Source: an uncultured Candidatus Bathyarchaeia archaeon (GTDB lineage Archaea > Thermoproteota > Bathyarchaeia > Bathyarchaeales > SOJC01). Taken from it: a stretch of DNA of 52,653 bases. How positions within the stretch are numbered: position 1 is the stretch's first letter; each line of letters starts with the position of its first letter. Below the pieces are notes generated by a model that worked only from the letters and a program-made list of their open reading frames with translations, searched no databases and was not told the DNA's origin. Positions 5,096 to 42,572 of this stretch are shown in pieces. The position numbers were made by a program, and so were the translations under genes. Location: NCBI GenBank assembly GCA_964348215.1, contig CAYGBS010000001.1:1-52653 (forward strand), given 5' to 3'.

Positions 5096-5586
5096 CAGTC
5101 GGCGTGGTTTTCGATTTAGAGGGAACTCTGGTTAAGCTTCCCATAGACTATGAAATGTTGTATAGGGAAATTGAAAGAGAGCTGAAAATCCGCAAGGCGA
5201 AGCCGTTGACTCAGACTTTAAAAGAACTGGACGATGAATCCCGGCAGAAAGCCTACAAACTTTGGGAACATGCAGAGCTGGAAGCATTAGCGAATATACG
5301 CCTCAGCGATGAAGGAATAGAACTCTATAAGAACTATTCCAAAAAGCCCCTTGCCCTAGTCACTATGCAAGGCAGGGTGGTTGTCAGAAAAATTCTTGAC
5401 CGTTTTCACCTGTCTTTTGCTGTCATAGTTACAAGGGAAGATGAAATAGATAGGGTGTGGCAAATTAAGAGAGCTATAGCTCAAATGGGTTTGAAGCCCC
5501 GTGATGTACTTTTTATCGGAGACAGGGACAACGATGAAGCCGCTGCGAAACAGATTGGTTGTGGATTCGTCAGGGTGATAACTTGA
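5092..5586 (+). CDS. HAD-superfamily hydrolase/phosphatase
   Basis: Motif I-like VVFDLEGTL and motif IV GDRDNDEAAA. ATGA overlap with the upstream gene. Confidence 0.65.
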   Translation: MTVGVVFDLEGTLVKLPIDYEMLYREIERELKIRKAKPLTQTLKELDDESRQKAYKLWEHAELEALANIRLSDEGIELYKNYSKKPLALVTMQGRVVVRKILDRFHLSFAVIVTREDEIDRVWQIKRAIAQMGLKPRDVLFIGDRDNDEAAAKQIGCGFVRVIT

Positions 5587-28904: not shown

Positions 28905-31900
28905 CTAACCGGGACCTCGCAGCCAACCACGTATTCCCAGTTCTTTTACAGTTACCGTTACCTGTTCAAGCTGGCAAGACTTGTGTTCCCCAACTTCATC
29001 CATATACTGAATTTTCGGTGTGAAAGTAAATCTTCCTTTCCTTTTAGGCTTTAGTGTGAGCCTCATCTCCTCTGTTGCAAGTGCAGCCAATTTTCTCCCC
29101 TTTAAGTTAAGTATTCCGTCATTAACTACACATCTCTTAGGCCTTTCTATGAGGTTAAATCCTTCCGGAACTATTTCTTCCATTTTAATCAGAAATGCAG
29201 CGTTCTTTCCAAGATTGGCAAGTTGAATCTCCAAGCCAAAGGTTTCACCCACTGCAACCTCTAGCTTGTGCGCAATTAGATTTGCTTGAATAAATGCACG
29301 TTCAAACTTCAGCAAACCAACAGGCTCTTCCACAGTCAGGCCCGGTGCAGACATTATGCTGGTACTTGATGCTTCAGAAGGCACTCCGACAAGTTCCCTC
29401 AAGGACAATGCGAATTCGCTTTTTTCTTTCACTTCTCTCAAAATCTTGAGAACCTCGCTCTTTTTGCCGGTGTGCCCTGCTGTTTCGTAGAGTCCGGCTG
29501 ACCGTTCAAGACATTTCTCGGCGAGAAGGTAGATCTTCATCTTCTTTTCAGGGTCAATCTCTATTTCAGCACTACTCTTGTAGTTATAAGCATCAAACAG
29601 AATTCCTGTGGCGCTTGTCCATATTGAAGCATTCTCAAAGCCAGCTTTCAAGTAGTAGTTAGCCGCGCTCTCAAGGAATTTCTTTGCTTTAGAGAAATCA
29701 TCTTTCTCTCTTTTCTCTTCAAACATGGTTCCATGTTCCAATGCCTTGCAGAAAGCACTGTTGCCCGAAGCTAGCAAGACTGTTTTGTTTTTCGTGCTGT
29801 GTTCCTTTGCTTTAAGAAACAACTCTGACGACTCGCGGTAGAGTTCAGGTGACGCTCTTCCGTCAGCCATCTTCATCTTTTGCCATGCACGATACATAAA
29901 AGCAAATGCCCTTATTTCTTTTCGATCAATTCCTGTCCCCATTGCTTTTAGAATTTTATCGAAAATTGTAGCAGCTGAATCATATTTTTCAGCGCTTTCA
30001 ACATGATCTCCTTTGCGGTCATATATTTTCGCTTCTTCTACGTTTGACCTCGCAAGGCAATAATCCTTTCTCAGTATAGAGGCTTTACTAAGTTCAATCG
30101 CCTTCTCCTTTTCGTCCAGATTTTGGATCTTCTCGATCTGCCTGTCGAAAGCTTCTTTAGCTTCCTTGAAAAGTTCAGCTGCTTTTTTGAAGGCTCCTAT
30201 TGACTCGACGTTACTTTCTTTCCTACTCCAATCTTCTGCCTGTTCAAGAAGTGACCATGCAGAGAAGTTAGAAGATAAATAGTTCCACAAATGTGAGGAT
30301 CTAAGAAGGTTTGCGGTTTTCTCGTAACGTTCCATCGCGGAGAGATATTTTTCGTGCAAGTGGGCATCTTTTGCTCTCTCAATTTCACTCCAAGCTTTCA
30401 TGTAAGTTGCATAATCGAGATAGAAATCTGCGAAATGAGCGATTTTTTGAGCCGCATTCTTGTATTCTGCGAATGCGTTTTCGAACTCTTCTGCAGCCTT
30501 GCGCTGTTTTCCTAAGAGGTCTAAACCCTTTGCCATTTTCCAGTAGGATTCGGCGACACGGCTTGACAGGTCGACTTTCTTAAATCTCTGAGTTGCATCT
30601 TCATAGATTTCAATTGCTCTAGTCAGGGTCGCCTTGTCTTCAGTAAGTAAGTAAAGCTCATTAAGTATTCCTCCAAACCAGTCTTCAAATCGTGCGAAGG
30701 CAGCGATGAGCGTTGGCACAGGGCGAGACAATATCCATCTTCTACACCTTGACAGGCAATCCTCCATGTCCGAGGCAGCACTTTTTAGAAGAGCTATCTT
30801 TTTGTCTCTGTCTGTTTCAACTCTAGCTAACTCTGCCTTTATTAAGCCTTCATAGTTTTTGCCGACACCGCGAGTCCAATCATTTGATGGAAATACAGTT
30901 TCCACAATCTTGTTGTATCCTTCCCTGTGAATGAGAGCTTCTTCGAGCAGCTCCACTTTTTCAGCCTTTCCAATTTCAAGGTCGAATCGCGCCCGAGCAT
31001 CTAGAGCTTTGCTTAGTGCATGAAGATTCGTGCCAGTGGCGTCGGGGGAACCTGAACGAGATGCGTGCTCTAACCCTTTACGCCCGATTTCCACTGCCTT
31101 TCTTAGGAGAATGCGTTTTTCTTCTGATGTGACTTCTACATTGCGTGCCATAGAGGAGTAGCTTTCCGCGTAGTAGGAGTAGACTTGTGCAATGAACAAG
31201 TCATTGGAGACCAACTGAAGGTATTGGTTGGCATCTTGAGCGTATTTGATGATCTTTCTATGCCCCTCTTTCTTTACGTCGGGATCCTCCTCTCTGAGCA
31301 TCATCCAATTGGTGACAAACGCAAGGACATAGGACGCGATACCTTTCAGGTAGTTATCTTTCAAGGTCTTTCCCTGTTTCAGCATCTCTCTTGCATAGTT
31401 AAGCGAGGATTCAACTTCTTCCGTAAAAAAGAGCGTAGAGAAAGCTGCTGCCCAGTTTGACATGGCTTTGCAGTAGGGATTGCTAACCTCCCTGGAAAGC
31501 TCCAACGCCTTCTTTGAGTAACTCACACTTCTTTGGGAAAGCTCTTTTCTTCTCTCCTTTTGCTCACTGATGTTTGCCGCATACCAGCTTTGAAGGCTGG
31601 CTACGGCATAGGCGCGTACGAGTTCACTTTTGTTCTTAAGCCTCGACAAAACTGCAATTGCCTCGTCAGCACATTTGATTCCCTCTTGAGCCACCATCCT
31701 TATCTCCCTCCAGTCAGATGCAACATACAATTTCTCAAAGTGACACAGCAGTAGATCGTTGCATATCTCCGCGTAACCTTGGTCATCCGCAGCATTCTTA
31801 TATGCCTCTAAGCTCTCACTTCCAGACACACAACACTCTTCAAGCATTTTTCTTCTTTCAGGAGCGGTAGAGGCTAACCAAGAAGTCAAGTAAGCGGCAA

Positions 31901-32210
31901 TAGCATTACACTGAGCAACTTTGCCTTTCTTCTTCAAATGGTCTTCTTTTCCAAAAAGCTCAGCGGCACTTTTGTAGGCCTCCACTGCAAGCTTCCTGAA
32001 TTTTCGGAAGTCTTCTTGGGTTCCAGTTTGTCTGGAAGCTAGACGGTAGCAGGAACCAACCTTTCTCCAAGTCTCTGCTGTGCGGGAAACACTTTTCGGT
32101 TCAAGATTTAGTGCTTTTTCATAGGACTTTGCCGCATCAAGCCATTCAAATTTTCCTTCTTGTTCTATGGCCTTTCTTAGAATGGTCTCCATGTCGCCTT
32201 CTGAAGCCAT
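28905..32210 (-). CDS. Large soluble TPR-like helical-repeat protein with a C-terminal beta-sandwich (CARDB-like) domain
   Basis: 1101 aa with no P-loop and no TM segment. About 950 aa of repeated A/Y/K/E-rich helical hairpins. The last ~120 aa (EVAVGETFGLEIQLANLGKNAAFLIKMEEIVPEGF...FTFTPKIQY...VTVTVKE) have a beta-strand pattern. Confidence 0.6.
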   Translation of the reverse strand: MASEGDMETILRKAIEQEGKFEWLDAAKSYEKALNLEPKSVSRTAETWRKVGSCYRLASRQTGTQEDFRKFRKLAVEAYKSAAELFGKEDHLKKKGKVAQCNAIAAYLTSWLASTAPERRKMLEECCVSGSESLEAYKNAADDQGYAEICNDLLLCHFEKLYVASDWREIRMVAQEGIKCADEAIAVLSRLKNKSELVRAYAVASLQSWYAANISEQKERRKELSQRSVSYSKKALELSREVSNPYCKAMSNWAAAFSTLFFTEEVESSLNYAREMLKQGKTLKDNYLKGIASYVLAFVTNWMMLREEDPDVKKEGHRKIIKYAQDANQYLQLVSNDLFIAQVYSYYAESYSSMARNVEVTSEEKRILLRKAVEIGRKGLEHASRSGSPDATGTNLHALSKALDARARFDLEIGKAEKVELLEEALIHREGYNKIVETVFPSNDWTRGVGKNYEGLIKAELARVETDRDKKIALLKSAASDMEDCLSRCRRWILSRPVPTLIAAFARFEDWFGGILNELYLLTEDKATLTRAIEIYEDATQRFKKVDLSSRVAESYWKMAKGLDLLGKQRKAAEEFENAFAEYKNAAQKIAHFADFYLDYATYMKAWSEIERAKDAHLHEKYLSAMERYEKTANLLRSSHLWNYLSSNFSAWSLLEQAEDWSRKESNVESIGAFKKAAELFKEAKEAFDRQIEKIQNLDEKEKAIELSKASILRKDYCLARSNVEEAKIYDRKGDHVESAEKYDSAATIFDKILKAMGTGIDRKEIRAFAFMYRAWQKMKMADGRASPELYRESSELFLKAKEHSTKNKTVLLASGNSAFCKALEHGTMFEEKREKDDFSKAKKFLESAANYYLKAGFENASIWTSATGILFDAYNYKSSAEIEIDPEKKMKIYLLAEKCLERSAGLYETAGHTGKKSEVLKILREVKEKSEFALSLRELVGVPSEASSTSIMSAPGLTVEEPVGLLKFERAFIQANLIAHKLEVAVGETFGLEIQLANLGKNAAFLIKMEEIVPEGFNLIERPKRCVVNDGILNLKGRKLAALATEEMRLTLKPKRKGRFTFTPKIQYMDEVGEHKSCQLEQVTVTVKELGIRGWLRGPG

Positions 32211-32314: not shown

Positions 32315-33121
32315 TTATAAGCTTCGGTGCTTGAGTCGGATAGAGGCCTTCTTGATTTCATCTTTCTCCAGTTTTGCCGCCCGTCTCAATCTTTCAAGAT
32401 ATTCTTTTCCCTTCTCTGTAAGTCGAAACCCAACTCCTATGTTTCTCGGTCCCCAGCTCTCTTGGATTAACCCGTTCTTCACAAAGGTCTTAATCGTTTG
32501 CTTGGAGATGTCGAAACCTGTATGAAGATCCAAATACGACAGTGGTCGATTGCATAGAGCCGTGAATAAAGCTAGCTTTTCAGATGCAGTAAGCGATTTT
32601 GTTCGACCTAGCTTCGCTGGGCGATTAATGGCAAGAAAATGCCGTCTTTTGCTTGTCCTCACTAATCTCTCTTTGCCCATTCCCAGTCTTGGAAATGAAT
32701 GTTGCTCAAGCTCGGGATTTTTCGAATCAGAAATGTCTGCTGTTGTAGACAGGCTGGACTTGTTCGCACTTTTGGAGCTAAACTTGAAGAGGGCTGTTTT
32801 TTGCCTTAGTTCTTCTTTAGCTCTTGCATCTTTCGTTGCAGCGAAGCTTGCCAACCCTCTGGATAATAAGTTACTGCTTCGTGAGATATAGATATGATTT
32901 TTGTGTTGGCCTTTCTTTTGCGATCTTGAATCAGCACCTCTGGAATGTTTACAAATGAGAATTTCGTCTTGTTCGATTTCCTTTTGAATGTAATAACGAG
33001 CCACAGGTTCTGGGACTCCGAAATGCAGGGCAACCTCTTTCAGGCTACGTGGTTCAGACAAGAAATCTAGGAGGTCAGAAGGCTTGAGACCGCGCATTCG
33101 ACTCGAATGATTAAACTCCAT
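32315..33121 (-). CDS. Putative regulator with two winged-helix domains separated by a Ser/Lys-rich linker
   Basis: Start placed at MEFNHSS. N-terminal LLDFLSEPRSLKEVALHFGVPEPVARYYIQKE. C-terminal LALFTALCNRPLSYLDLHTGFDISKQTIKTFVKNGLIQE...RLTEKGKEYL. The track ORF's extension to 33241 looks non-coding. Confidence 0.55.
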   Translation of the reverse strand: MEFNHSSRMRGLKPSDLLDFLSEPRSLKEVALHFGVPEPVARYYIQKEIEQDEILICKHSRGADSRSQKKGQHKNHIYISRSSNLLSRGLASFAATKDARAKEELRQKTALFKFSSKSANKSSLSTTADISDSKNPELEQHSFPRLGMGKERLVRTSKRRHFLAINRPAKLGRTKSLTASEKLALFTALCNRPLSYLDLHTGFDISKQTIKTFVKNGLIQESWGPRNIGVGFRLTEKGKEYLERLRRAAKLEKDEIKKASIRLKHRSL

Positions 33122-33231
33122 CTCTGATATATAAGCATATATAACATATGTATAATGTATCCAAGTTGCACAGGAAGGGAGAATCATTGCCCCAAAAATC
33201 TGTTGAAGCCATCTTAAGAGGAGAATCGAGA

Positions 33232-33378
33232 ATGACATCAAGAGGGCAGATAACAGTACCGATAGAAATCAGGAGAAAGTTCAGGTTACGACCCGGCGAT
33301 GTCATCTGTTTTCTTGAAGTTGATGGTTCCATAGTTCTCAAACTAGGTCCCCTCGTCTTGACGGAGCAGCAGAGGTAG
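33232..33378 (+). CDS. AbrB/SpoVT-type (MazE-like) DNA-binding mini-protein
   Basis: MTSRGQITVPIEIRRKFRLRPGDVICFLEVDGSIVLKLGP is a classic SpoVT-AbrB swapped-hairpin motif. GAGGAG lies 9 nt upstream of ATG 33232, and the next gene starts 4 nt after its stop. Confidence 0.7.
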   Translation: MTSRGQITVPIEIRRKFRLRPGDVICFLEVDGSIVLKLGPLVLTEQQR

Positions 33379-33382
33379 ATAT

Positions 33383-36184
33383 ATGTCTTCAAAAACCGAC
33401 CTTATGTATGAGATCACGTATAACTCACAGTTTGTTCCACGACGCTCTCCAAGGGTCAATATTAAAGAGTTAATCGTTGACGGTAAAGAAACATACATCA
33501 TGAAGAATCACCTTACTGGAATGTACTATGATGTTGATCAGGTTTCTTATGCGATTTGGAATCTAATTGATGGGCAACGAACTTTAGCTGAGATCAGCAA
33601 AGAGGTTTTGGAAAAATGGCCCGACATTGAACCGGACACCGCTGAGCAAGTTATTTTGTTCCTCGCTGAAATCGGCTGTCTTGAATCAGTTGTTGAAGAC
33701 ACTCGAAAGAAGAGAATAAAGGTGCCTTCAGCTTTTGAGATCGATGTGGTCCTAATCGAAAAAAGTAAGGCTTTTCTGGAAAGTATCCATAATGTGTTTC
33801 GCCCTCTGCTCAAAACACCGCTTTTCTGGGGAATCGTCGTCTTCATAATTCTCTGCAGCATTGCATTTGCAGGGCGATTCACAGCTATCTTTGCAGATGG
33901 CAGCAATTTTAGGATACTCGGATCTACTGTTGTAGGTTTTTTCTTCTATTCCTTCATTGTCTTAGGGCCAACAATTGCAATTCACGAAATCGCTCATGGA
34001 TTGGCTTTGGTTCATTACGGAGGGACTCCCGGCGAAATTGGCACTGGCTTGTTCTACTTTGGTCCCATGTTCTATATAGACGCAACCGATTCATGGATTC
34101 TTGGTAGAAGAGAGCGGATCATGGTCATGATGGCCGGCAATCTTTCAACTCTCATCATTGCCTCGTCGATAGTAGCCATCGGATACATCTTCCCTTACCC
34201 TGCCTCGGTCTCTCATCTCCTTTACATGACTGCTTTCTTCTGCTTTTACGCAACTCTAATGAATATGGCGCCTCCTTTTGAAACAGATGGATACTACGTC
34301 CTAGCTGATCTGGTGAACATTTCGAATTTGAGACAAGAATCATATGGCTACGTCAAATCGATATTCAAGAAAGCCCTCAGAATGCATACAGATGAAAACG
34401 CCTTCACTTCAAAGAAAAAGAAAATTCTTATTGGATTTGCATTTTTGTCTGTGGCTTGGATAATTTACACAGCCTTTCAAACGACCCTTTTTACGTTCTA
34501 CATGGCAGGAGACGCACAAGACGCATTCATCACAGTTTACTCAGCCCTTGCATCTTCTGAAGTTTTGAACCTTGCTCCCGTGGTTGTCAGCATAGCTTCA
34601 GTTCTCTATTTTGGAATGACTCTAACTGGGTATGGTGTAATCCTTATATCAGCAATTAAGAAGGCGTTCAAGGCACCTCTGAAGTTTGAAGCCGTTCACG
34701 ATCGAGACCTCTCGATGTTTTTTTATCTCCCTTCCAAAGCAACTGAAACAACAAGACACTTCGAAGATCAAGTGAAGAAAGTTAGCAAGCAATTCACGCA
34801 GAATTATGAGGTCACTCAAGCTGGGTCGGTACTTGCTGCAACGCTTAGAATGGGTGGCACCAAGCTAGCGTTGAACCAGATTAGTACACACCTTCGAAAA
34901 GTTGAACAATCATTCAGTTCAACATACCAAAGCTTCCTTCAGAAAAATGAGGGAACAATCTTCGAGTCCGCAGAAGACTCCAGCTCCAAAGTGGAGCTTG
35001 CATCACTTCTCAGAAAGATGGGAAATGAAGCTGCAGAGGCCAGAATGCCGGAAGCGAAGAATGCCGTAGAGCAAATAATTGATAGGCAAAGAAAGACTTC
35101 CATGCACCTGATAAACTCAGCTTACGGCTCTGTATGGACAATAGAGCTTCCCCCCTTCCTACTTGAGGAGGTTAAGGATACACTATACCCATCCTTTTTC
35201 GTTCAAGATTTCGCAATAACTGATTTATATGGCGAAACCGAGGAGTTTAAGAAAAGTACAATTTACGGATTTGATTCCCTTTCACAACTGTCATCTCGAA
35301 ATCGAACACATCTCCAGAAAGTGCTTAGGAAACCGGAACAATACCAAGTAGTCTCATTTTTTGAACCTATAAAGAGCCGACTTCTCTTTGTCGGCAGAAC
35401 TGAAAGAATTGAAAAAGACATTCACAAATTTGGCACTCTTTTCATTGGTCAGGCTTGGTGTGGATACCTTGACAAGCTTCTTAACGAGGCCAATCTTACT
35501 CTTTCAGCACTAAGGCAACTACCTCTTTTGAATATGGATGATGTTGAAGTTATGAGTGACGGAGAGATCTTTGTTTTGAACCAAAATCTGTCGGCAATCT
35601 CTACTTTCGAAAAAGCAGTCATAAAGGCCTTAGACGAGTCTGAAGATTTCGCAAAAGATGTAGAAGATAACGTCAAGATGTTCAAGACATACTTTGAAGA
35701 AGATAAATCTCTCAAGATAGGCTTGCTGGACGAGATAGTTGCAATAAACAGAGAGAACCTTGCTAGGCTGCCAAGGAGGCTAAAAAAGTTTAGAAAAGAG
35801 TTTCAAAGAATCGCATCTTCGATCGGGGCGATAATTGTGAGAGTGCAAGAAGAGTCTCGGAAAAGAGAACAAGCTGTTAAAAAGAAGAGCCGGAGAAACC
35901 TATATGCCTATCCAATAGTTGCTATTTTGTCAGCTGTGTTAGTTTTAGCAGGTTTCTACGACAGAACCATGTTGTTGATGATATCCTTCACGATAGTTGC
36001 TGCTTTACTGCAAGTCAGCTACTGGGCCGTATTCTATTCAAGATGGAAACGTTTTCACAGAGCTGGGCAATATCCCTCACAGCCTTTTACCAAAGTGCAA
36101 CTATTCACTCTAGCTTTCACTCAGGCTATATATAGATTCATAGCTACTTACGATGTAATCATTCCTACAAAAGAAAGGTTTTGA
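33383..36184 (+). CDS. PqqD/RRE-like domain fused to an M50-like (site-2-protease-type) intramembrane zinc metalloprotease, with a long helical C-terminal domain and two terminal TM helices
   Basis: Residues ~40-100, YDVDQVSYAIWNLIDGQRTLAEISKEVLEKWPDIEPDTAEQVILFLAEIGCLE, look PqqD-like. The TM-embedded HExxH is IAIHEIAHGLALVHYGG. The second M50 motif is NMAPPFETDGYYVLADL. About 6-7 TM segments are followed by ~420 aa of helical sequence. Confidence 0.7.
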   Translation: MSSKTDLMYEITYNSQFVPRRSPRVNIKELIVDGKETYIMKNHLTGMYYDVDQVSYAIWNLIDGQRTLAEISKEVLEKWPDIEPDTAEQVILFLAEIGCLESVVEDTRKKRIKVPSAFEIDVVLIEKSKAFLESIHNVFRPLLKTPLFWGIVVFIILCSIAFAGRFTAIFADGSNFRILGSTVVGFFFYSFIVLGPTIAIHEIAHGLALVHYGGTPGEIGTGLFYFGPMFYIDATDSWILGRRERIMVMMAGNLSTLIIASSIVAIGYIFPYPASVSHLLYMTAFFCFYATLMNMAPPFETDGYYVLADLVNISNLRQESYGYVKSIFKKALRMHTDENAFTSKKKKILIGFAFLSVAWIIYTAFQTTLFTFYMAGDAQDAFITVYSALASSEVLNLAPVVVSIASVLYFGMTLTGYGVILISAIKKAFKAPLKFEAVHDRDLSMFFYLPSKATETTRHFEDQVKKVSKQFTQNYEVTQAGSVLAATLRMGGTKLALNQISTHLRKVEQSFSSTYQSFLQKNEGTIFESAEDSSSKVELASLLRKMGNEAAEARMPEAKNAVEQIIDRQRKTSMHLINSAYGSVWTIELPPFLLEEVKDTLYPSFFVQDFAITDLYGETEEFKKSTIYGFDSLSQLSSRNRTHLQKVLRKPEQYQVVSFFEPIKSRLLFVGRTERIEKDIHKFGTLFIGQAWCGYLDKLLNEANLTLSALRQLPLLNMDDVEVMSDGEIFVLNQNLSAISTFEKAVIKALDESEDFAKDVEDNVKMFKTYFEEDKSLKIGLLDEIVAINRENLARLPRRLKKFRKEFQRIASSIGAIIVRVQEESRKREQAVKKKSRRNLYAYPIVAILSAVLVLAGFYDRTMLLMISFTIVAALLQVSYWAVFYSRWKRFHRAGQYPSQPFTKVQLFTLAFTQAIYRFIATYDVIIPTKERF

Positions 36185-36260
36185 CCATCGACAAGACGCA
36201 AAAAGAAGAAAAAAAACGTGAAAATGCTGTTCTAGAAGAGATGGGCACCGGGTTGGATGT

Positions 36261-36533
36261 TTACGTCTTTGTTACTCTTTCCTTGGCTGTGACGCGTTCT
36301 TTAGCTTTCAATCGTTCTTTTGCTGCCAATCGTCCCTTAGCTGTTACTCTTTCCTTGGCCGTCACTCGACTTTTAGCCGCCACACGCTCTTTGGCTGTTA
36401 CTCTCTCCTTAGCTGTTACTCTTTCCTTAGGTGTCACACGCTCTTTCATAGCGAATTTTGGAAGAGAACGTTCTTTCAACATGATACGCTTAGGTTTCTT
36501 CTCTTCCAGCTTCTTAGCCTTCTTTTTCGGCAT
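36261..36533 (-). CDS. Highly basic 90-aa protein with ten tandem KERVTA-type hexapeptide repeats
   Basis: MPKKKAKKLEEKKPKR...(KERVTA)n...KERVTKT. A GGAGGTGA Shine-Dalgarno sits 7 nt upstream of the ATG. Arg is kept in all 10 repeats through four different codons (AGA, CGA, CGC, CGT). The same changes are L/R replacements in the overlapping plus-strand ORF. Confidence 0.7.
   Translation of the reverse strand: MPKKKAKKLEEKKPKRIMLKERSLPKFAMKERVTPKERVTAKERVTAKERVAAKSRVTAKERVTAKGRLAAKERLKAKERVTAKERVTKT
36271..36450. repeat. Ten degenerate tandem 18-bp repeats (coding repeat of the KERVTA protein)
   Basis: The units start at 36271, 36289, 36307 and so on, every 18 bp, through 36433. Consensus on the plus strand is gttactctttccttagct. 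Confidence 0.9.
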
Positions 36534-36540
36534 TACCTAC

Positions 36541-36548
36541 TCACCTCC
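36541..36548 (-). promoter_or_regulatory. Shine-Dalgarno sequence GGAGGTGA of the repeat-protein gene
   Basis: The minus strand reads GGAGAGGAGGTGAGTAGGTA-ATG. Confidence 0.6.
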
Positions 36549-36718
36549 TCTCCAATTATTCGTTTAGTGTATATCAGACAAATAGGATTTAAAACATCGT
36601 AAGGAAGGTTTGAAAAGTAAGAATAGCTACCTAGATCGTTGCTTCCATTCACAAGCTCAAGGGCTTTGGCTTTGAAGCAGATTCTTATCATTTCAGAACT
36701 AACCTTGTAAGCGAGCTT

Positions 36719-37012
36719 TCAAGCGAAGAACAGTGCAAACACTGACAAAATCGAACATAACAACCCTAGTAAGAAAGTTACGGCTGTACCTGTCCAGAGT
36801 TTTTTGCGCGTTGGGTAAATACTGTAAAAGAATATGAAAAAAGCTGAAAGAAGGAACATCATAGCACCTAACAAGAGTATAACCTTCAAACCTAAAGCGA
36901 TCTCATTTCCGCTAACCTGCACCACTGCTAAGCTTAAGGCGGCTAGTGTTCCTGGATAAGAGGCATTTACAATGGGCTTGATAAACTTCTCCTCAAACTC
37001 CTCAGCCATCAC
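36719..37012 (-). CDS. Small integral membrane protein (2-3 TM)
   Basis: 97 aa. An acidic N-terminus is followed by hydrophobic stretches (LAALSLAVVQV, VILLLGAMMFLLSAFFIFFY, AVTFLLGLLCSILSVFALFF). Confidence 0.45.
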   Translation of the reverse strand: MMAEEFEEKFIKPIVNASYPGTLAALSLAVVQVSGNEIALGLKVILLLGAMMFLLSAFFIFFYSIYPTRKKLWTGTAVTFLLGLLCSILSVFALFFA

Positions 37013-40087: not shown

Positions 40088-42028
40088 TCACATTTTCTCA
40101 GGAGCTACAATGCCGATCAGATTTAACGCATTTCTGAGTACTTTGCTAACTGCTTCAACCAGCTCTAGTCGAGCGGCGCTTAAAGCTTTCGGCTTCGCTT
40201 TTATAACTGGTAAAGCATTGTAGAAACTGTTGAACTTGTCGGCTAAAGCATTTGCGTAGTCGGCGATTGCGTTGGGTTTGAGTTTTTCTGCGGAGTTGAT
40301 GAAAGTTTCTGGAAAACGTGCCAGCATCAAAACAAGATCTTGCTCTAATGGTTCTGTCAGTAGTGAATAATCTGGGTTTTCAGGTTTCTTCTGCGCTTTT
40401 CTCAAAATGCTGCGAGCCCGTGCATGAGAATACTGAATGTTAGGTGCGCTGTTTCTCTCAAAGTCTATCACTCTATCCCATGTAAAAACCACGGGCTTTA
40501 CGGGATCAACTACAACAAGGGCATATTTGAGGGCTCCAACTCCAACGATCTTCGAGATTTTCATCTTTTCTTCTTCGGATAGTTGAGGTGATCGCTTCTC
40601 CACTTCTTCACGAGCTCTTTTTATGGCTTCAGCCATTACTTCGTCAAGGGCTATGTAGCGTCCTCTACGGCTGGACATCTTGTATCCTGGTAGTGTTACT
40701 AGATTGTATGCGAAATGCGTAAGGTTCCTTGCTTGCTCAGCATGCCCTAACGCCCATACGGCCAGTTTCAATTGTAGTTGTGGCAGCTTTTGTTCCATTC
40801 CGACGACGTTGATCACTTTTGTTGCCCTCTTGAATTTCCACAGAGTGTAGGGGATGTCTCGGGTCGTGTAGAGGGTTGTGCCGTCTGCGCGTACCAATGT
40901 CAAAGAGGGGATCTCGTAGTCGTCTCTTATGCCAAGGGAGCGTTTCAGCTTGTAGTCTTCTGCGACTTTGTTGGCGTCGAATTCTAGAACGGGGCCTTCT
41001 CGAAAAACGTAGTTAGTCTTTTTCAAAGTTTCCAACGTTTTTGCTGTATCACTATTCCAGGTGAACTTGCTTTCCCAATCCCAAGAGTTGAAGAGAATCT
41101 CTGCTTGAGTAAGAGTTTCTTTTATGCCTTCTAGTGAGAGCTTGCATACTTCGCGAACAAGTTTTTTGGCTTCTTCTTCGCCATTTTCATATGCACGGTT
41201 CAAATTATCAGCTATAGTCTCGATGTCTTTGCTGGCTCTTTCGAGAAGTTGGTAAAAGAGTTTTGGGTGTTTTCTTTCCAATTCAGCTGCAATCGAAGTC
41301 CATTCGCCCAGTTGTCTATGTAACTGCTGAACAGTTTCAGATGCTGGGTTGTTTTCTCTTTCTATTGCCTTCTTAAGTCTCTGGATTTCCATAATACAGC
41401 TGGCTAGAGTATAGATTAGACCGATATAGTGGTCCGGCTTTTCCTCTACGGTTGGTCTACCCAGTTTCTTGTATCCATATGCAGCCACTGCAGTTTGGCG
41501 TCCAACATCGTCAACATAAAAATGCCTAAAGACCGTGTGACCCCTTGCAGCCAAGATCCGCGCAAGTGCGTCTCCCAGGAAGGGATTTCTTGCTTGACCA
41601 ATGTGGATGGGTGATATGGGGTTCGCGCTTGTGTGTTCTACAATAATCTTCTCCGGCTCTTCTGTTTTGACATGGCCATATGCTACATCCAAAGCCGTAA
41701 CAGACTCAATTGTTATCTTCAAGAGTCTACCAAAGTCCACGTAAAAGTTCGTATATCCTCCCCCAGCGGCTTTTACAGCACTTATGAGTGGGAAATCTTT
41801 TACTTTGATGGAACTCACGATTTGCTCTGCCAATTTGCGCGGTTGCCTTTTCAGCTTCTTTCCAAGTTCAAAAAAAACTGCTGAAGACAGGTTTCCAAAC
41901 TTAGGGTTAGCTGGAATTTCCAGCAAAAACGATTCGATAGAGATGGATGGATAAAGACTAGTGAACGACTTTTTCAAAGCTCTCCTGCAATCTCTTCGAA
42001 AGTTGCCGAAAGGATTCACGGAGACCAT
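40088..42028 (-). CDS. argS: Arginine--tRNA ligase
   Basis: HTSANPISPIHIGQARN (HIGH region), a class I fold, and a C-terminal DALR-type anticodon-binding domain. Start placed at MVSVNPFG; the track ORF's upstream extension looks non-ArgRS. Confidence 0.9.
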   Translation of the reverse strand: MVSVNPFGNFRRDCRRALKKSFTSLYPSISIESFLLEIPANPKFGNLSSAVFFELGKKLKRQPRKLAEQIVSSIKVKDFPLISAVKAAGGGYTNFYVDFGRLLKITIESVTALDVAYGHVKTEEPEKIIVEHTSANPISPIHIGQARNPFLGDALARILAARGHTVFRHFYVDDVGRQTAVAAYGYKKLGRPTVEEKPDHYIGLIYTLASCIMEIQRLKKAIERENNPASETVQQLHRQLGEWTSIAAELERKHPKLFYQLLERASKDIETIADNLNRAYENGEEEAKKLVREVCKLSLEGIKETLTQAEILFNSWDWESKFTWNSDTAKTLETLKKTNYVFREGPVLEFDANKVAEDYKLKRSLGIRDDYEIPSLTLVRADGTTLYTTRDIPYTLWKFKRATKVINVVGMEQKLPQLQLKLAVWALGHAEQARNLTHFAYNLVTLPGYKMSSRRGRYIALDEVMAEAIKRAREEVEKRSPQLSEEEKMKISKIVGVGALKYALVVVDPVKPVVFTWDRVIDFERNSAPNIQYSHARARSILRKAQKKPENPDYSLLTEPLEQDLVLMLARFPETFINSAEKLKPNAIADYANALADKFNSFYNALPVIKAKPKALSAARLELVEAVSKVLRNALNLIGIVAPEKM

Positions 42029-42150
42029 GCTGCAATTACCTGTGAAAGCATATCCAACCTCACAAACCTTGCAGACACCCTTTTCCGAGGTAACTAATAA
42101 ACTGTTTGACAGGTAAGGAAACAAGAAAACTGGTAAGGCTCTTTCCCAAG

Positions 42151-42363
42151 CTATGTTCTCAGCGATTTTGGCGGGATATTGTCTAGGTCCAAACTTGCTT
42201 GTTTCCCCGAAATCTTCTGCACGGTCCAATGTAGAACTTCATGACTTAGAACGTCTTCAATCTTGCCGTCGTGTTCACCAAAAATATAGATCTCCCCTCC
42301 GCCTGTGTCGTAAATCCCATAGATTGGAGGAAAATGAAAGTGAAATCGCAGCCTCCTACGCAT
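42151..42363 (-). CDS. Small hypothetical ORF with an HExxH motif (uncertain)
   Basis: 70 aa containing ...EIYIFGEHDGKIEDVLSHEVLHW.... Lies between tRNA-Arg and argS. Its 3' end overlaps the open frame upstream of argS, which itself encodes CKVCEVGYAFTGNC. Confidence 0.25.
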   Translation of the reverse strand: MRRRLRFHFHFPPIYGIYDTGGGEIYIFGEHDGKIEDVLSHEVLHWTVQKISGKQASLDLDNIPPKSLRT

Positions 42364-42493: not shown

Positions 42494-42572
42494 TGGCGGG
42501 CCCGTGGGGATTTGAACCCCAGATCTCCGGCTCCGCAGGCCAGCGTCCTAATCCAGACTAGACCACGGGCCC
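42494..42572 (-). tRNA. tRNA-Arg (anticodon GCG), CCA encoded
   Basis: Minus strand: GGGCCCG-UG-GUCU-AGUCUGGAUUA-GGAC-G-CUGGC-CUGCGGA-GCCGG-AGAUC-UGGGG-UUCAAAU-CCCCA-CGGGCCC-G-CCA. It folds by hand into a full cloverleaf with anticodon loop CU-GCG-GA. Confidence 0.9.

What the first reader, a model, noticed from the sequence alone, without database searches (positions are those of the whole stretch)
36261..36548. Ten tandem 18-bp repeats encode a very basic KERVTA hexapeptide-repeat protein; both strands are open, but codon usage identifies the minus strand as coding
The repeat array 36271-36450 is open on both strands, giving plus LAVTRS-type and minus KERVTA-type repeats. The two frames share their third-codon positions, so simple wobble analysis is uninformative. 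However, all ten units keep Arg on the minus strand through four different codons (AGA x4, CGA x3, CGT x2, CGC x1). The same substitutions toggle Leu/Arg on the plus strand. The minus ORF also has a strong GGAGGTGA Shine-Dalgarno 7 nt from its ATG. The product, MPKKKAKKLEEKKPKR...(KERVTA)10, is a 90-aa lysine/arginine-rich repeat polypeptide with no family I recognise. It lies convergent to the RRE-M50 protease gene, about 77 nt away. It could be a nucleic-acid-binding or disordered scaffold protein. More speculatively, it could be a multi-core precursor cut at the repeated basic sites.
Basis: partly seen in the sequence, partly recalled or inferred. Interest (0 to 1): 0.65.

Follow-up and report, generated by a model that had tools for sequence, protein, structure and literature searches.

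The report
Repeat-tailed peptide paired with RRE-protease
The ten 18-bp repeats belong to a real, minus-strand gene for a 90-residue peptide, one member of an apparently undescribed Bathyarchaeia family (conserved leader plus a fast-changing tandem-repeat tail) that almost always sits next to a membrane protease carrying a leader-peptide-binding domain and is probably that protease's substrate.

Summary
Window 36261-36533 (-) encodes a 90-aa protein: a 29-aa leader, then ten KERVTA-type hexapeptides. It has a GGAGGTGA ribosome-binding site, its own TATA box and an oligo-T terminator.

It is not an orphan. About 70 of 96 related Bathyarchaeia loci carry a small gene with a related leader (Lys/Glu-rich, ending hydrophobic-x-Pro-Lys-hydrophobic). 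The tails are tandem repeats of about 40 unit types, 4-12 aa long (APAK, ARPQ, MKPT, KERIAA, MRLTPNQLAA and others). The gene lies beside the 933-aa protease gene in three different gene orders.

Substitution patterns fit protein-level selection in the minus frame. Leader pN/pS is 0.07-0.12, and 68% of differences between repeat units fall at third codon positions.

The neighbour has an RRE domain fused to an M50/site-2 protease. Its best family match is the daptide leader peptidase (E 1e-44, below that model's cut-off), and its RRE fold matches lasso-peptide B1 proteins. No tailoring enzymes are present.

Best reading: the RRE binds the leader and the protease cleaves it from the repeat tail. 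What the tail does is unknown. The small-protein family has no Pfam or NCBIfam model, and all ten members looked up are missing from the 15-billion-protein collection.

The parts
36261..36533 (-). CDS of the 90-aa leader-plus-repeat peptide (stop codon included): MPKKKAKKLEEKKPKRIMLKERSLPKFAM + 10 KERVTA-type units + T
   Evidence: ORF list and translation. The gene is called on two other assemblies, L001 and L002. Orthologues in L003 and L004 show leader pN/pS 0.07-0.12.
36447..36533 (-). Leader-coding part (aa 1-29). It is Lys/Glu-rich and ends in the family's conserved motif, here S-L-P-K-F-A-M.
   Evidence: A leader HMM built from 23 relatives scores this ORF at E 8.8e-9.
36267..36446 (-). 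Ten tandem 18-nt units encoding K-E-R-V-T-A variants (aa 30-89), with a higher-order 72-nt (4-unit) periodicity
   Evidence: Tandem Repeats Finder. Unit and codon table. 26 synonymous against 13 non-synonymous differences from the unit consensus.
36541..36548 (-). Shine-Dalgarno sequence GGAGGTGA, 7 nt upstream of the ATG
   Evidence: The same motif precedes the ATG in all 51 strictly filtered family members.
36587..36600 (-). Archaeal promoter block ACGATG-TTTTAAAT (BRE-like element plus TATA box), 54-67 nt upstream of the ATG
   Evidence: Coordinates. The block (TTTCGTACAATnTTTTAAAT) is conserved upstream of nearly all family members. It occurs only once in the window. The promoter role is inferred.
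36200..36216 (-). Oligo-T runs (T8 and T5) 45-61 nt after the stop codon; candidate archaeal terminator in the 76-nt gap between the convergent genes
   Evidence: The terminator role is inferred from the known use of oligo-T signals in archaeal termination.
33383..36184 (+). 933-aa RRE-fused M50/site-2 intramembrane metalloprotease. RRE at about aa 20-100; HEIAH at aa 201-205; NMAPPFETDG at aa 293-303; about 414-aa soluble domain, probably cytoplasmic; two C-terminal transmembrane helices.
   Evidence: Pfam PqqD E 5.9e-8. NCBIfam daptide intramembrane metalloprotease E 1.2e-44, and YydH/LiaK family E 5.6e-13. AlphaFold2 model pLDDT 77. Foldseek top hits are lasso B1 RREs bound to leader peptide. 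Hydropathy and topology.
33148..33378 (+). 76-aa AbrB/SpoVT-type DNA-binding protein, a constant member of the gene neighbourhood
   Evidence: Pfam MazE_antitoxin E 2.1e-7. NCBIfam AbrB family E 9.1e-9. Homologues sit beside the peptide gene or the protease gene in related loci.
32315..33121 (-). 268-aa winged-helix protein, a recurrent neighbour divergent from the AbrB-protease pair
   Evidence: Weak HTH_45 and HVO_A0261_N hits. Called as 268 aa on L001. Homologues in L005, L007, L008, L011, L012, L013 and L016.

Best explanation
The minus-strand ORF is a real, separately transcribed gene for a small two-part peptide. The first part is a conserved N-terminal leader of about 29 residues. The second is a tail of tandem peptide repeats. 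This peptide is the cognate partner, most likely the substrate, of the adjacent RRE-fused M50/site-2 intramembrane metalloprotease.

Proposed steps:
1. The gene is transcribed from its own conserved BRE/TATA promoter and translated from a near-perfect Shine-Dalgarno site. The sequence signals are shown; their activity is inferred. There is weak RNA evidence from a relative.
2. The N-terminal PqqD-like RRE domain of the protease, inferred to face the cytoplasm, binds the leader's conserved hydrophobic-x-Pro-Lys-hydrophobic motif. This is inferred from homology to the daptide leader peptidase MpaP and to lasso-peptide B1 proteins.
3. The HExxH site cleaves the leader from the tail, either freeing or destroying the repeat tail. 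This is inferred.
4. The tail is a charged low-complexity polymer. In the window it has net charge +23 and is predicted helical. In most relatives it is Pro/Ala/Lys/Arg-rich and probably extended. The unit is held constant within a lineage and replaced between lineages, with copy number changing by whole units. The pattern is shown; the role is unknown.

No tailoring enzyme belongs to the module. If this is RiPP-like, the product is an unmodified, proteolytically matured peptide. Otherwise the system is a regulated-proteolysis switch, possibly feeding the conserved AbrB-type and winged-helix regulators next door.
For: Gene reality and strand:
- Leader pN/pS is 0.07-0.12, with pS 0.52-0.93, in window/L003/L004 comparisons.
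- An ATG follows a GGAGGTGA-type site in 51 loci.
- Of 2052 within-array differences in 45 arrays, 68% are at codon position 3 and 70% are synonymous in the sense frame.
- All repeat periods are multiples of 3 nt: 12, 15, 18, 21, 24, 27, 30 and 36.

Family and linkage:
- About 70 of 96 loci fetched through the protease carry the peptide gene. Most of the rest lack flanking sequence or are N-masked.
- Adjacency survives three gene orders: convergent downstream of the protease (window and most loci), and co-directional immediately upstream of it in L008, L007/L069 and L077.
- Protease identity to the window ranges from 37% to 100%.
- Leader divergence tracks protease divergence (rho 0.79 for the core, 0.70 for the RRE). 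There is a small extra partial correlation with the RRE (r 0.16, p about 0.009) and none with the C-terminal domain.

Protease nature:
- Pfam PqqD hit.
- NCBIfam daptide intramembrane metalloprotease, E 1.2e-44 over residues 38-369, and YydH/LiaK epipeptide protease, E 5.6e-13.
- Foldseek's best hits are TbiB1 and another lasso B1 RRE in complex with leader peptides (prob 1.0, target TM 0.68). A PDB profile search agrees.
- The RRE strand 'Y-x-M-K-N-H' is invariant or nearly so in the 28-sequence alignment and conserved with rare exceptions in the 39 loci.

Precedent: RRE-fused S2P MpaP removes the daptide leader, whose key residues are L(-7) and M(-4) flanking P(-5) (10.1101/2023.03.08.531785). 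M50 proteases EpeP, TglG and TmoG act in other RiPP pathways (PMC10885120).

Expression: in one peat metatranscriptome, contigs cover the leader-coding part of the L006/L067 orthologue at word depth 105, 35 and 9, against 2.1 for the protease gene.
Against: - No binding or cleavage has been shown. The link rests on synteny and homology.
- The match to the daptide protease model (153 bits) is well below its 300-bit equivalog cut-off.
- This protein carries an extra C-terminal half of about 500 residues with no recognisable relative.
- In most loci the two genes are convergent, which is not the usual layout for a precursor-protease pair.
- No tailoring enzyme or dedicated exporter is conserved nearby.
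- The module sits among housekeeping genes and was recovered on each of the three closed Bathyarchaeota chromosomes among the genome hits. That looks more like core physiology than a sporadic natural-product cluster.
- S2P proteases usually cut membrane-associated segments, and the peptide has no hydrophobic stretch.
- Leader classes coincide with clades, so the RRE-leader co-variation cannot be separated from shared ancestry.
- The RNA evidence comes from assembled contigs of a relative, without strand information.
Confidence: 0.58

Rival explanations
1. The peptide is a free-standing basic, disordered nucleic-acid- or polyanion-binding protein of the histone-H1-tail / AlgP type. It lies next to the protease only through inherited gene order or shared regulation, and is not a substrate.
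For: The tails carry one Lys or Arg every 4-6 residues. In most relatives they are APAK/APAR/ARPQ-type Ala/Pro/Lys repeats, which resemble the KPAA/AAKP repeats of bacterial H1-like proteins (my own knowledge). The strong conserved promoter and ribosome-binding site suit an abundant structural protein. The module looks like a core-genome feature.
Against: This reading does not explain why a 29-residue non-repeat leader with a conserved Pro motif is under strong purifying selection. It does not explain why adjacency to an RRE-bearing protease survives three rearrangements. The decapeptide tails of L011, L031 and L072 are only about 14% basic. The window tail carries one Glu per unit. There is no sequence match to any H1, HC2 or AlgP family.
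Confidence: 0.17
2. The peptide is a multi-core precursor: after leader recognition the tail is cut at every basic residue into many identical tetra- to decapeptides that act as signals or antimicrobials. This is the reader's speculative option and a special case of the best explanation.
For: The layout is conserved leader plus repeated short units, each with one Lys or Arg. Within a lineage the unit's amino-acid sequence is kept despite synonymous drift, as expected if each unit is a product.
Against: Units abut directly, with no recognition or spacer sequences. No trypsin-, subtilisin- or Kex2-like protease, cyclase or exporter is conserved nearby. Unmodified linear 4-mers such as APAK are unlikely stable signals. 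M50 proteases are not known to cut processively at basic sites (my own knowledge).
Confidence: 0.1
3. The peptide regulates the protease rather than serving as its substrate. It would act as a pseudo-substrate or gate bound through the RRE, analogous to the way BofA and SpoIVFA hold SpoIVFB inactive, controlling cleavage of some other membrane or regulatory target.
For: There is tight genetic linkage to an RRE-S2P. The conserved AbrB-type and winged-helix regulators nearby suggest a signalling circuit. RRE-bound leaders are known to activate a peptidase in lasso systems (reference cited).
Against: There is no similarity to known S2P inhibitors. A hypervariable repeat tail is not obviously needed for gating. 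No candidate alternative substrate was identified.
Confidence: 0.1
4. The array is not the minus-strand gene: either the plus-strand 128-aa ORF (LAVTRS repeats) is the gene, or the repeats are non-coding DNA or RNA elements.
For: The plus frame is open across the array, and antisense frames are open in many relatives.
Against: The plus ORF has only a TTG start. No ATG with a Shine-Dalgarno motif was found in it, and the same is generally true of antisense frames in relatives. Its pN/pS is 2-4 times higher than that of the minus frame. All periods are multiples of 3, and 68% of unit differences fall at minus-frame third positions. There is no Rfam match.
Confidence: 0.02

Closest known systems
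Daptide system: precursor MpaA/DapA plus RRE-fused intramembrane site-2 protease MpaP/DapP (Actinomycetota, Bacillota)
   Same: Both have an N-terminal PqqD-like RRE fused to an M50 core. The NCBIfam model for this protease is the best hit (E 1.2e-44). Both have a short precursor with a conserved leader built around a Pro flanked by hydrophobic residues, and a cationic product. In daptides the protease removes the leader.
   Different: The score is below the equivalog cut-off. None of MpaB (DUF-RRE), the oxidative decarboxylase, the aminotransferase or the methyltransferase is present. The C-terminal Thr is not invariant in the family. The cores are tandem repeats. The protease has an extra C-terminal half of about 500 residues. 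The host is archaeal and the setting is core-genome.
Lasso-peptide B1 (RRE) / B2 (leader peptidase), e.g. TbiB1, FusE/FusB
   Same: These are the best structural match for the N-terminal domain (5v1u, 6jx3). The logic matches: the RRE binds a Tyr/Pro/Leu-containing leader motif and hands it to a protease, and RRE and protease are fused in some systems.
   Different: The lasso protease is a cysteine transglutaminase-like enzyme, not M50. There is no lasso cyclase here. The motif spacing differs (Y-x-x-P-x-L in lasso leaders, from my own knowledge, against Phi-P-K-Phi here).
Epipeptide protease EpeP/YydH with EpeX/YydF, and pearlin proteases TglG/TmoG
   Same: These are membrane M50 proteases that mature ribosomal peptides. 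The window protein matches the YydH/LiaK model at E 5.6e-13. JGI names several homologues 'putative peptide zinc metalloprotease protein'.
   Different: No RRE fusion is noted for these proteases in the passages of the review that I read. Radical-SAM or other tailoring enzymes accompany them. Their substrates are not repetitive.
SpoIVFB / pro-sigma-K and other S2P regulated-proteolysis pairs
   Same: An M50 protease removes an N-terminal pro-sequence of about 20 residues from a protein that is not an integral membrane protein. DNA-binding regulators lie nearby.
   Different: SpoIVFB has a CBS domain rather than an RRE. Its substrate is a folded sigma factor, not a repeat peptide.
Bacterial histone-H1-like basic repeat proteins (AlgP KPAA repeats, chlamydial Hc2, HupB tail)
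   Same: Tandem Ala/Pro/Lys-rich basic repeats with variable copy number resemble the APAK/APAR tails of most family members.
   Different: There is no detectable homology. Those proteins lack a conserved leader and any linkage to an RRE protease. The window's KERVTA unit contains Glu and is predicted helical.
Amino-acid tandem repeats of Borg elements (PMC9879509)
   Same: Archaeal tandem repeats in multiples of 3 nt evolve rapidly and create low-complexity protein regions (abstract).
   Different: Borg repeats are scattered through many genes of an extrachromosomal element. Here there is one dedicated chromosomal gene with a fixed leader and a fixed protease partner.

Membership tests
RRE-dependent leader-peptide (RiPP-type) precursor | Short gene product with a conserved N-terminal leader and a variable C-terminal core | tested here: met
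   The leader HMM hits 37 loci. Leaders are conserved while tails show about 40 unit types.
RRE-dependent leader-peptide (RiPP-type) precursor | A protein with a RiPP recognition element encoded next to the precursor | tested here: met
   PqqD domain at residues 42-89. The RRE fold matches TbiB1. The genes are adjacent in about 70 loci.
RRE-dependent leader-peptide (RiPP-type) precursor | Physical binding of the leader to the RRE | not testable with these tools
   No complex prediction or assay was available. The only support is indirect co-variation, confounded by phylogeny.
RRE-dependent leader-peptide (RiPP-type) precursor | One or more post-translational tailoring enzymes in the cluster | tested here: not met
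   The conserved neighbours are only an AbrB-type and a winged-helix protein. Window neighbours within about 13 kb are HypF, H+-PPase, ACS, ArgRS, LysRS, MFS and PfkB.
Daptides | RRE-fused intramembrane metalloprotease (NF041824 equivalog) | tested here: inconclusive
   E 1.2e-44 and 153 bits, but the curated cut-off is 300. The match covers only residues 38-369 of 933.
Daptides | [quoted passage not shown] | tested here: not met
   None is found in the window around the locus.
Daptides | Invariant C-terminal Thr on the precursor | tested here: not met
   The window peptide ends in Thr, but relatives end in K, V, P, A, Q or R.
Peptidase family M50 (site-2 protease) | HExxH motif within a transmembrane helix | tested here: met
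   HEIAH at residues 201-205 lies inside the hydrophobic segment 182-210. H201, E202 and H205 are invariant in 28 homologues.
Peptidase family M50 (site-2 protease) | Second motif NxxPxxxxDG supplying the third zinc ligand | tested here: met
   NMAPPFETDG at residues 293-303. P297, D302 and G303 are invariant.
Peptidase family M50 (site-2 protease) | Match to the Pfam model PF02163 | tested here: inconclusive
   The window protein gives no PF02163 hit at E <= 0.01. Several close homologues carry precomputed PF02163 hits, and NCBI names one 'M50 family metallopeptidase'.
Histone-H1-like / AlgP-type basic repeat proteins | Sequence membership in a known basic-repeat DNA-binding family | tested here: not met
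   No Pfam, NCBIfam or PDB hit for the window peptide. Eight diverse relatives give nothing above cut-offs.
Histone-H1-like / AlgP-type basic repeat proteins | Binding to nucleic acid | not testable with these tools
   Composition only: 34 K+R against 11 D+E in 90 residues.
Multi-core RiPP precursors (cyanobactin / dikaritin type) | Each core flanked by recognition or cleavage sequences, with a dedicated repeat-cutting protease | tested here: not met
   Units are contiguous, with no spacers. No subtilisin- or Kex2-like protease is found in the neighbourhood.

The most novel reading that the evidence does not exclude
Bathyarchaeia carry, as a near-universal core module, a new class of ribosomal peptide system. 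A highly expressed precursor has a fixed leader and a lineage-specific tandem-repeat core. It is matured solely by an RRE-guided intramembrane metalloprotease, with no tailoring enzymes. The released repeat polymer has a physiological role: a polycationic effector, an envelope or nucleoid component, or a signal read by the adjacent AbrB and winged-helix regulators. This would be the first RRE-S2P/peptide pair described in Archaea, and the first in which the 'core' is a homopolymer of a short peptide unit.
Probability: 0.35. Interest if true: 0.85.

Novelty: new variant of a known kind. Interest (0 to 1): 0.72.

Why it matters
Bathyarchaeia are among the most abundant archaea in anoxic sediments and peat (abstract of PMC9534799, and my own knowledge), and they remain largely uncultivated (my own knowledge). 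This module recurs across much of the sampled group, with the partner protease at 37-100% identity, yet it has escaped description.

Several things probably hide the small gene. It is short and low-complexity. Assemblies often break inside it. It has no Pfam or NCBIfam model. None of the ten members I looked up is in a 15-billion-protein collection.

The finding pairs an RRE-fused site-2 protease, a type so far tied to bacterial daptide natural products, with a new kind of partner peptide. The resulting hypothesis can be tested with two recombinant components: does the RRE bind the leader, and does the protease cut it?

It also offers a clean natural example of peptide tandem repeats that are conserved within a lineage at the amino-acid level while being replaced wholesale between lineages. 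Finally, it shows that repeat-filtered protein databases can hide whole gene families.

Tried and rejected
Searches that led nowhere:
- A direct homology search with the 90-aa protein against 5.8 billion clusters found nothing, not even the query itself.
- Exact look-ups of 10 family members were all absent. The first attempt, with DNA references, and the second, with plain sequences, both failed.
- phmmer against 1.84 billion representatives gave 21 hits, all to the repeat segment of the query (best stretches within residues 14-89). The five I read were unrelated repeat proteins. These collections apparently exclude the family, so I ran no further search on it.
- Pfam, NCBIfam, PADLOC and PDB sequence searches on the peptide gave nothing. 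Rfam gave nothing credible.
- An exact look-up of the window's protease failed, because the deposited copy differs by a few residues.
- RNA runs for the window itself: none found. Only a relative (L006/L067) had metatranscriptome contigs.
- The viral contig scan for the protease found nothing.
- Five full-text literature searches and look-ups in four papers found no description of this peptide family.

Readings rejected:
- The plus-strand ORF and non-coding repeats (see rivals).
- Daptide membership: tailoring genes and the invariant C-terminal Thr are absent.
- A defence-system reading: no PADLOC hit.
- A viral or mobile origin: no viral relatives, and a housekeeping gene context.

Results I do not over-read:
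- The Mantel and partial-Mantel test for RRE-leader co-evolution gave only a weak signal, confounded by phylogeny.
- The AlphaFold2 single-sequence model of the peptide (one long helix over residues 35-89, pLDDT about 80, pTM 0.27) is a weak prediction.
Full report
**1. The observation**

Tandem Repeats Finder reports an 18-nt array at 36270-36437 (9.3 copies, 70% matches, score 105). It also reports a higher-order 72-nt period (2.2 copies, 79% matches, score 190).

Both strands are open over the array. The plus ORF is 36181-36567: 128 aa, TTG start, LAVTRS/LAVTLS units. The minus ORF is 36261-36533: 90 aa, ATG start. The minus product reads MPKKKAKKLEEKKPKRIMLKERSLPKFAM, then ten K-E-R-V-T-A-type units, then a final Thr.

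The ten Arg codons are AGA x4, CGA x3, CGT x2 and CGC x1. GGAGGTGA lies at 36541-36548, 7 nt before the ATG. The stop codon is 76 nt from the end of the convergent 933-aa gene.

**2. Context and organism**

The window is from a Bathyarchaeia archaeon. Homologues of the 933-aa neighbour are named Bathyarchaeota or Bathyarchaeia in NCBI records, and all but one of the genome loci recovered carry that label. An identical peptide gene is called on two other assemblies.

Surrounding genes are housekeeping: HypF, HypD, HypB, H+-pyrophosphatase, acetyl-CoA synthetase, ArgRS with a tRNA-Arg, class-I LysRS, an MFS transporter and a PfkB kinase.

**3. The peptide belongs to a large family**

Direct protein searches fail:
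- The 5.8-billion-cluster search returned nothing, not even the query.
- Ten family members are all absent from the 15-billion-sequence collection.
- phmmer against 1.84 billion representatives found only matches to the repeat segment. The five I read were unrelated repeat proteins.

I therefore went through the neighbour. Its homologues are numerous: 170 clusters, with identity down to about 41% among the 120 listed. An alignment of 28 of them retrieved 14 genome loci and 80 metagenome loci.

A filter-free tblastn and a motif scan then showed a small ORF next to the protease gene in locus after locus. Each has a related N-terminus. The commonest form is MEEKK..KPEEKVKIYPKL. The window's form is ..EKKPKRIMLKERSLPKFAM. 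Each is followed by tandem peptide repeats that differ completely between lineages. Examples:
- 4-residue units: APAR/APAK, ARPK/ARPQ, ATGR, ASTR, MKPT, MKTP, SPAR, APSR, AQTR, KVAP
- 5-residue units: TRAAA, APKTI
- 6-residue units: KERVTA/KERIAA/KERLAA, KPRGEL, KARTQI, PKLAGG, LKTGQA, GAKSGL
- 7-residue units: GPTLAGK, TRKPVSM
- 8-residue units: DTKTLARL, APKVGLKA
- 9-residue unit: AQLRVPTAK
- 10-residue unit: MRLTPNQLAA
- 12-residue units also occur.

*Census.* A leader HMM hits 37 of 68 loci that have a complete protease 3' end and at least 350 nt downstream. Inspection of the other 31 finds the gene, with more divergent leaders, in most of them.

A strict filter required an ATG behind a GGAGGTGA-type site, at least 17% Lys+Arg, and strong periodicity. 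It keeps 51 loci including the window, which is 46 distinct proteins. Thirteen more are partial or relaxed cases, and seven were found by eye. The total is about 70 of 96 loci.

Most remaining loci end within 200 nt of the protease gene or are N-masked. The only clear absences are:
- L014, labelled Thaumarchaeota, 30% protease identity
- L085, 37% identity
- L017, which has an N gap at that position.

Many contigs end inside the array, so the repeats break assemblies.

**4. Coding strand and selection**

Window, L003 and L004 share a 26-codon leader block. In the minus frame pS is 0.52-0.93 and pN is 0.064-0.098, so pN/pS is 0.07-0.12. The plus frame that shares the wobble positions gives 0.23-0.33. 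Other frames are worse or contain stops.

Across 45 arrays I counted 2052 differences between individual units and their array consensus:
- 68% are at sense-frame third positions.
- 70% are synonymous in the sense frame.
- 60% are synonymous in the same-wobble antisense frame.
- 10-20% are synonymous in the other frames.

For the window array the counts are 26 synonymous and 13 non-synonymous in the sense frame, against 21 and 18 in the antisense frame.

All repeat periods are multiples of 3 nt. By inspection, antisense frames generally lack an ATG preceded by a ribosome-binding site. The minus-strand reading is secure.

The data also show more than compositional constraint. Within a lineage the unit's amino-acid sequence is held while its DNA drifts. 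Between lineages the unit is replaced.

**5. Expression signals**

Upstream of nearly every family member lies a conserved block, TTTCGTACAATnTTTTAAAT, about 54-67 nt before the ATG. An ATAT-rich patch follows about 20 nt further on, and then the Shine-Dalgarno site.

In the window the block is ACGATG-TTTTAAAT at 36587-36600, and it occurs only once in 52.6 kb. I read this as a BRE/TATA promoter giving a 5' UTR of about 30 nt. That reading is inferred.

T8 and T5 runs follow the stop codon at 36200-36216.

In a peat metatranscriptome, contigs cover the leader-coding 60 nt of the L006/L067 orthologue at word depths 105, 35 and 9. The protease gene has depth 2.1. This is contig-level evidence without strand information, so it is only weak support for high expression.

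**6. The neighbour**

The 933-aa protein has these features:
- A PqqD-type domain at residues 42-89.
- HEIAH at 201-205 inside a hydrophobic helix.
- NMAPPFETDG at 293-303. The metal ligands are invariant in 28 homologues.
- About six transmembrane segments up to residue 425.
- A soluble region of about 414 residues that the positive-inside rule places in the cytoplasm.
- Two C-terminal transmembrane helices.

NCBIfam's best match is the 'daptide biosynthesis intramembrane metalloprotease' (E 1.2e-44, 153 bits, residues 38-369, cut-off 300). The YydH/LiaK epipeptide protease model follows (E 5.6e-13), then several PqqD-type RRE models.

The AlphaFold2 model has pLDDT 77. Its best Foldseek hits are the lasso-peptide RREs TbiB1 and a B1 homologue, both crystallised with leader peptides (prob 1.0, target TM 0.68). 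A PDB profile search agrees.

[quoted passage not shown] It assigns that enzyme the removal of the leader, whose recognition motif centres on L(-7), P(-5) and M(-4). A review lists the M50 enzymes EpeP, TglG and TmoG as RiPP proteases.

**7. Linkage**

The peptide gene keeps its place beside the protease through three gene orders:
- Window clade: winged-helix (reverse), AbrB, protease, then peptide (reverse).
- Most loci: protease, peptide (reverse), then AbrB.
- L008: AbrB (reverse), peptide, protease, winged-helix, so the peptide gene sits directly upstream of the protease and co-directional with it. In L007/L069 and L077 the peptide gene is likewise co-directional and directly upstream, at the contig start.

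Leader divergence tracks protease divergence: Spearman 0.79 for the core, 0.70 for the RRE and 0.62 for the C-terminal domain. After controlling for the core, a small correlation with the RRE remains (r 0.16, p about 0.009). None remains with the C-terminal domain (r 0.04).

Four leader classes each pair with a distinct RRE variant. The predicted peptide-binding strand Y-x-M-K-N-H is conserved with rare exceptions and is invariant or nearly so in the 28-sequence alignment. The classes coincide with clades, so this is consistent with co-evolution but does not prove it.

**8. Mechanism**

The best-supported account has three parts:
- The peptide is the cognate ligand, and most likely the substrate, of the RRE-S2P.
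- The RRE binds the hydrophobic-x-Pro-Lys-hydrophobic leader motif.
- The M50 site separates leader from tail.

No tailoring enzymes are conserved, so the product would be unmodified.

What the tail does is open. It is polycationic in most lineages. In the window it has 34 K+R against 11 D+E, and a weak single-sequence model predicts one long helix. Most relatives have Pro-rich tails that cannot be helical. The decapeptide class weakly matches Pfam decapeptide and pentapeptide repeat models.

Points against a classical natural-product reading: the convergent orientation, the core-genome setting, the adjacent AbrB and winged-helix regulators, and the absence of an exporter. A regulated-proteolysis role is equally plausible.

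Rivals are scored in the Rival explanations section. They are an independent H1-like polycation, a multi-core precursor, a protease gate, and a plus-strand or non-coding reading.

**9. Novelty**

The RRE-S2P-plus-leader logic is known from daptides. The following are new as far as my searches reach:
- tandem-repeat cores
- the lack of tailoring genes
- the extra C-terminal half of the protease
- the archaeal host
- the apparent near-universality in Bathyarchaeia.

Five full-text literature searches found no description of the peptide family. It has no Pfam or NCBIfam model.

I classify it as a new variant of a known kind. About one chance in three, it represents a distinct class of ribosomal peptide system.

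Noticed in passing
window 36587-36600 (-); upstream regions of about 45 family members in L003-L096: A 20-nt promoter block (TTTCGTACAATnTTTTAAAT) is conserved upstream of the peptide gene in loci whose protease is only about 40% identical. That is more conservation than a generic TATA box needs. It may include an operator for the adjacent AbrB or winged-helix protein. It is unique in the window.
   Followed up: partly
window 33148-33378 (+); e.g. L019 4303-4584, L008 about 5300-5450 (-): A highly conserved AbrB/SpoVT-type protein of about 76 aa (..RGQITVPxEVRKKFGLKxGD..FLEVDGSIVLKLGPLVLTE) always accompanies the module. It changes position: upstream of the protease in the window, and divergent from the peptide gene in most relatives.
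   Followed up: partly
window 36719-37012 (-): A 97-aa predicted membrane protein lies just upstream of the peptide gene on the same strand. It has homologues in L003, L012 and L017 but is not part of the module in distant relatives. It has no family hit.
   Followed up: partly
L024, L035, L038, L040, L056, L071, L007, L069, L077 (contig ends); L005, L012, L016, L017 (N runs): Contigs often stop inside the repeat array, or carry N gaps at or near it. Repeat copy numbers in short-read assemblies are therefore unreliable, and the gene is systematically under-assembled.
   Followed up: no
L006 8771-9106 (-) versus L067 5526-5723 (-): These two near-identical orthologues differ at the 3' end of the MKPT array. 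L067 stops after ..MKPTKTA. L006 reads on for about 40 unrelated residues into the protease gene's 3' end. This is probably a frameshift or assembly error within the repeats.
   Followed up: no
L011 8870-9526 (-), L031 3759-4106 (-), L072 4059-4409 (-): One clade has 10-residue units (MRLTPNQLAA, LSLKPEQxxA) with a hydrophobic residue every fifth position and only about 14% Lys+Arg. L072 weakly matches the Pfam 'Decapeptide repeat' model (E 1.3e-8, below cut-off) and Pentapeptide_4. This tail may fold rather than stay disordered.
   Followed up: partly
L006 9036-9098 / L067 5653-5715: Three metatranscriptome contigs all end at the same base, 8 nt inside the ORF within an A-run. One of them runs straight into Illumina adapter sequence. 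This could be a defined RNA end or an assembly artefact.
   Followed up: no
window 28905-32210 (-): A 1101-aa protein with only weak MIT-domain and DUF11 hits. It is conserved next to the module in the closest assembly (L001).
   Followed up: no
protein collections: Gene calls for the 90-aa peptide exist on two contigs, yet the sequence and nine relatives are missing from the clustered 15-billion-protein collection. The cause is unknown; some filtering of short or low-complexity proteins is my guess.
   Followed up: partly
window 40088-42229 (-) and 42494-42572 (-): The arginyl-tRNA synthetase gene lies next to a tRNA-Arg(GCG) gene, an ordinary but tidy pairing.
   Followed up: no
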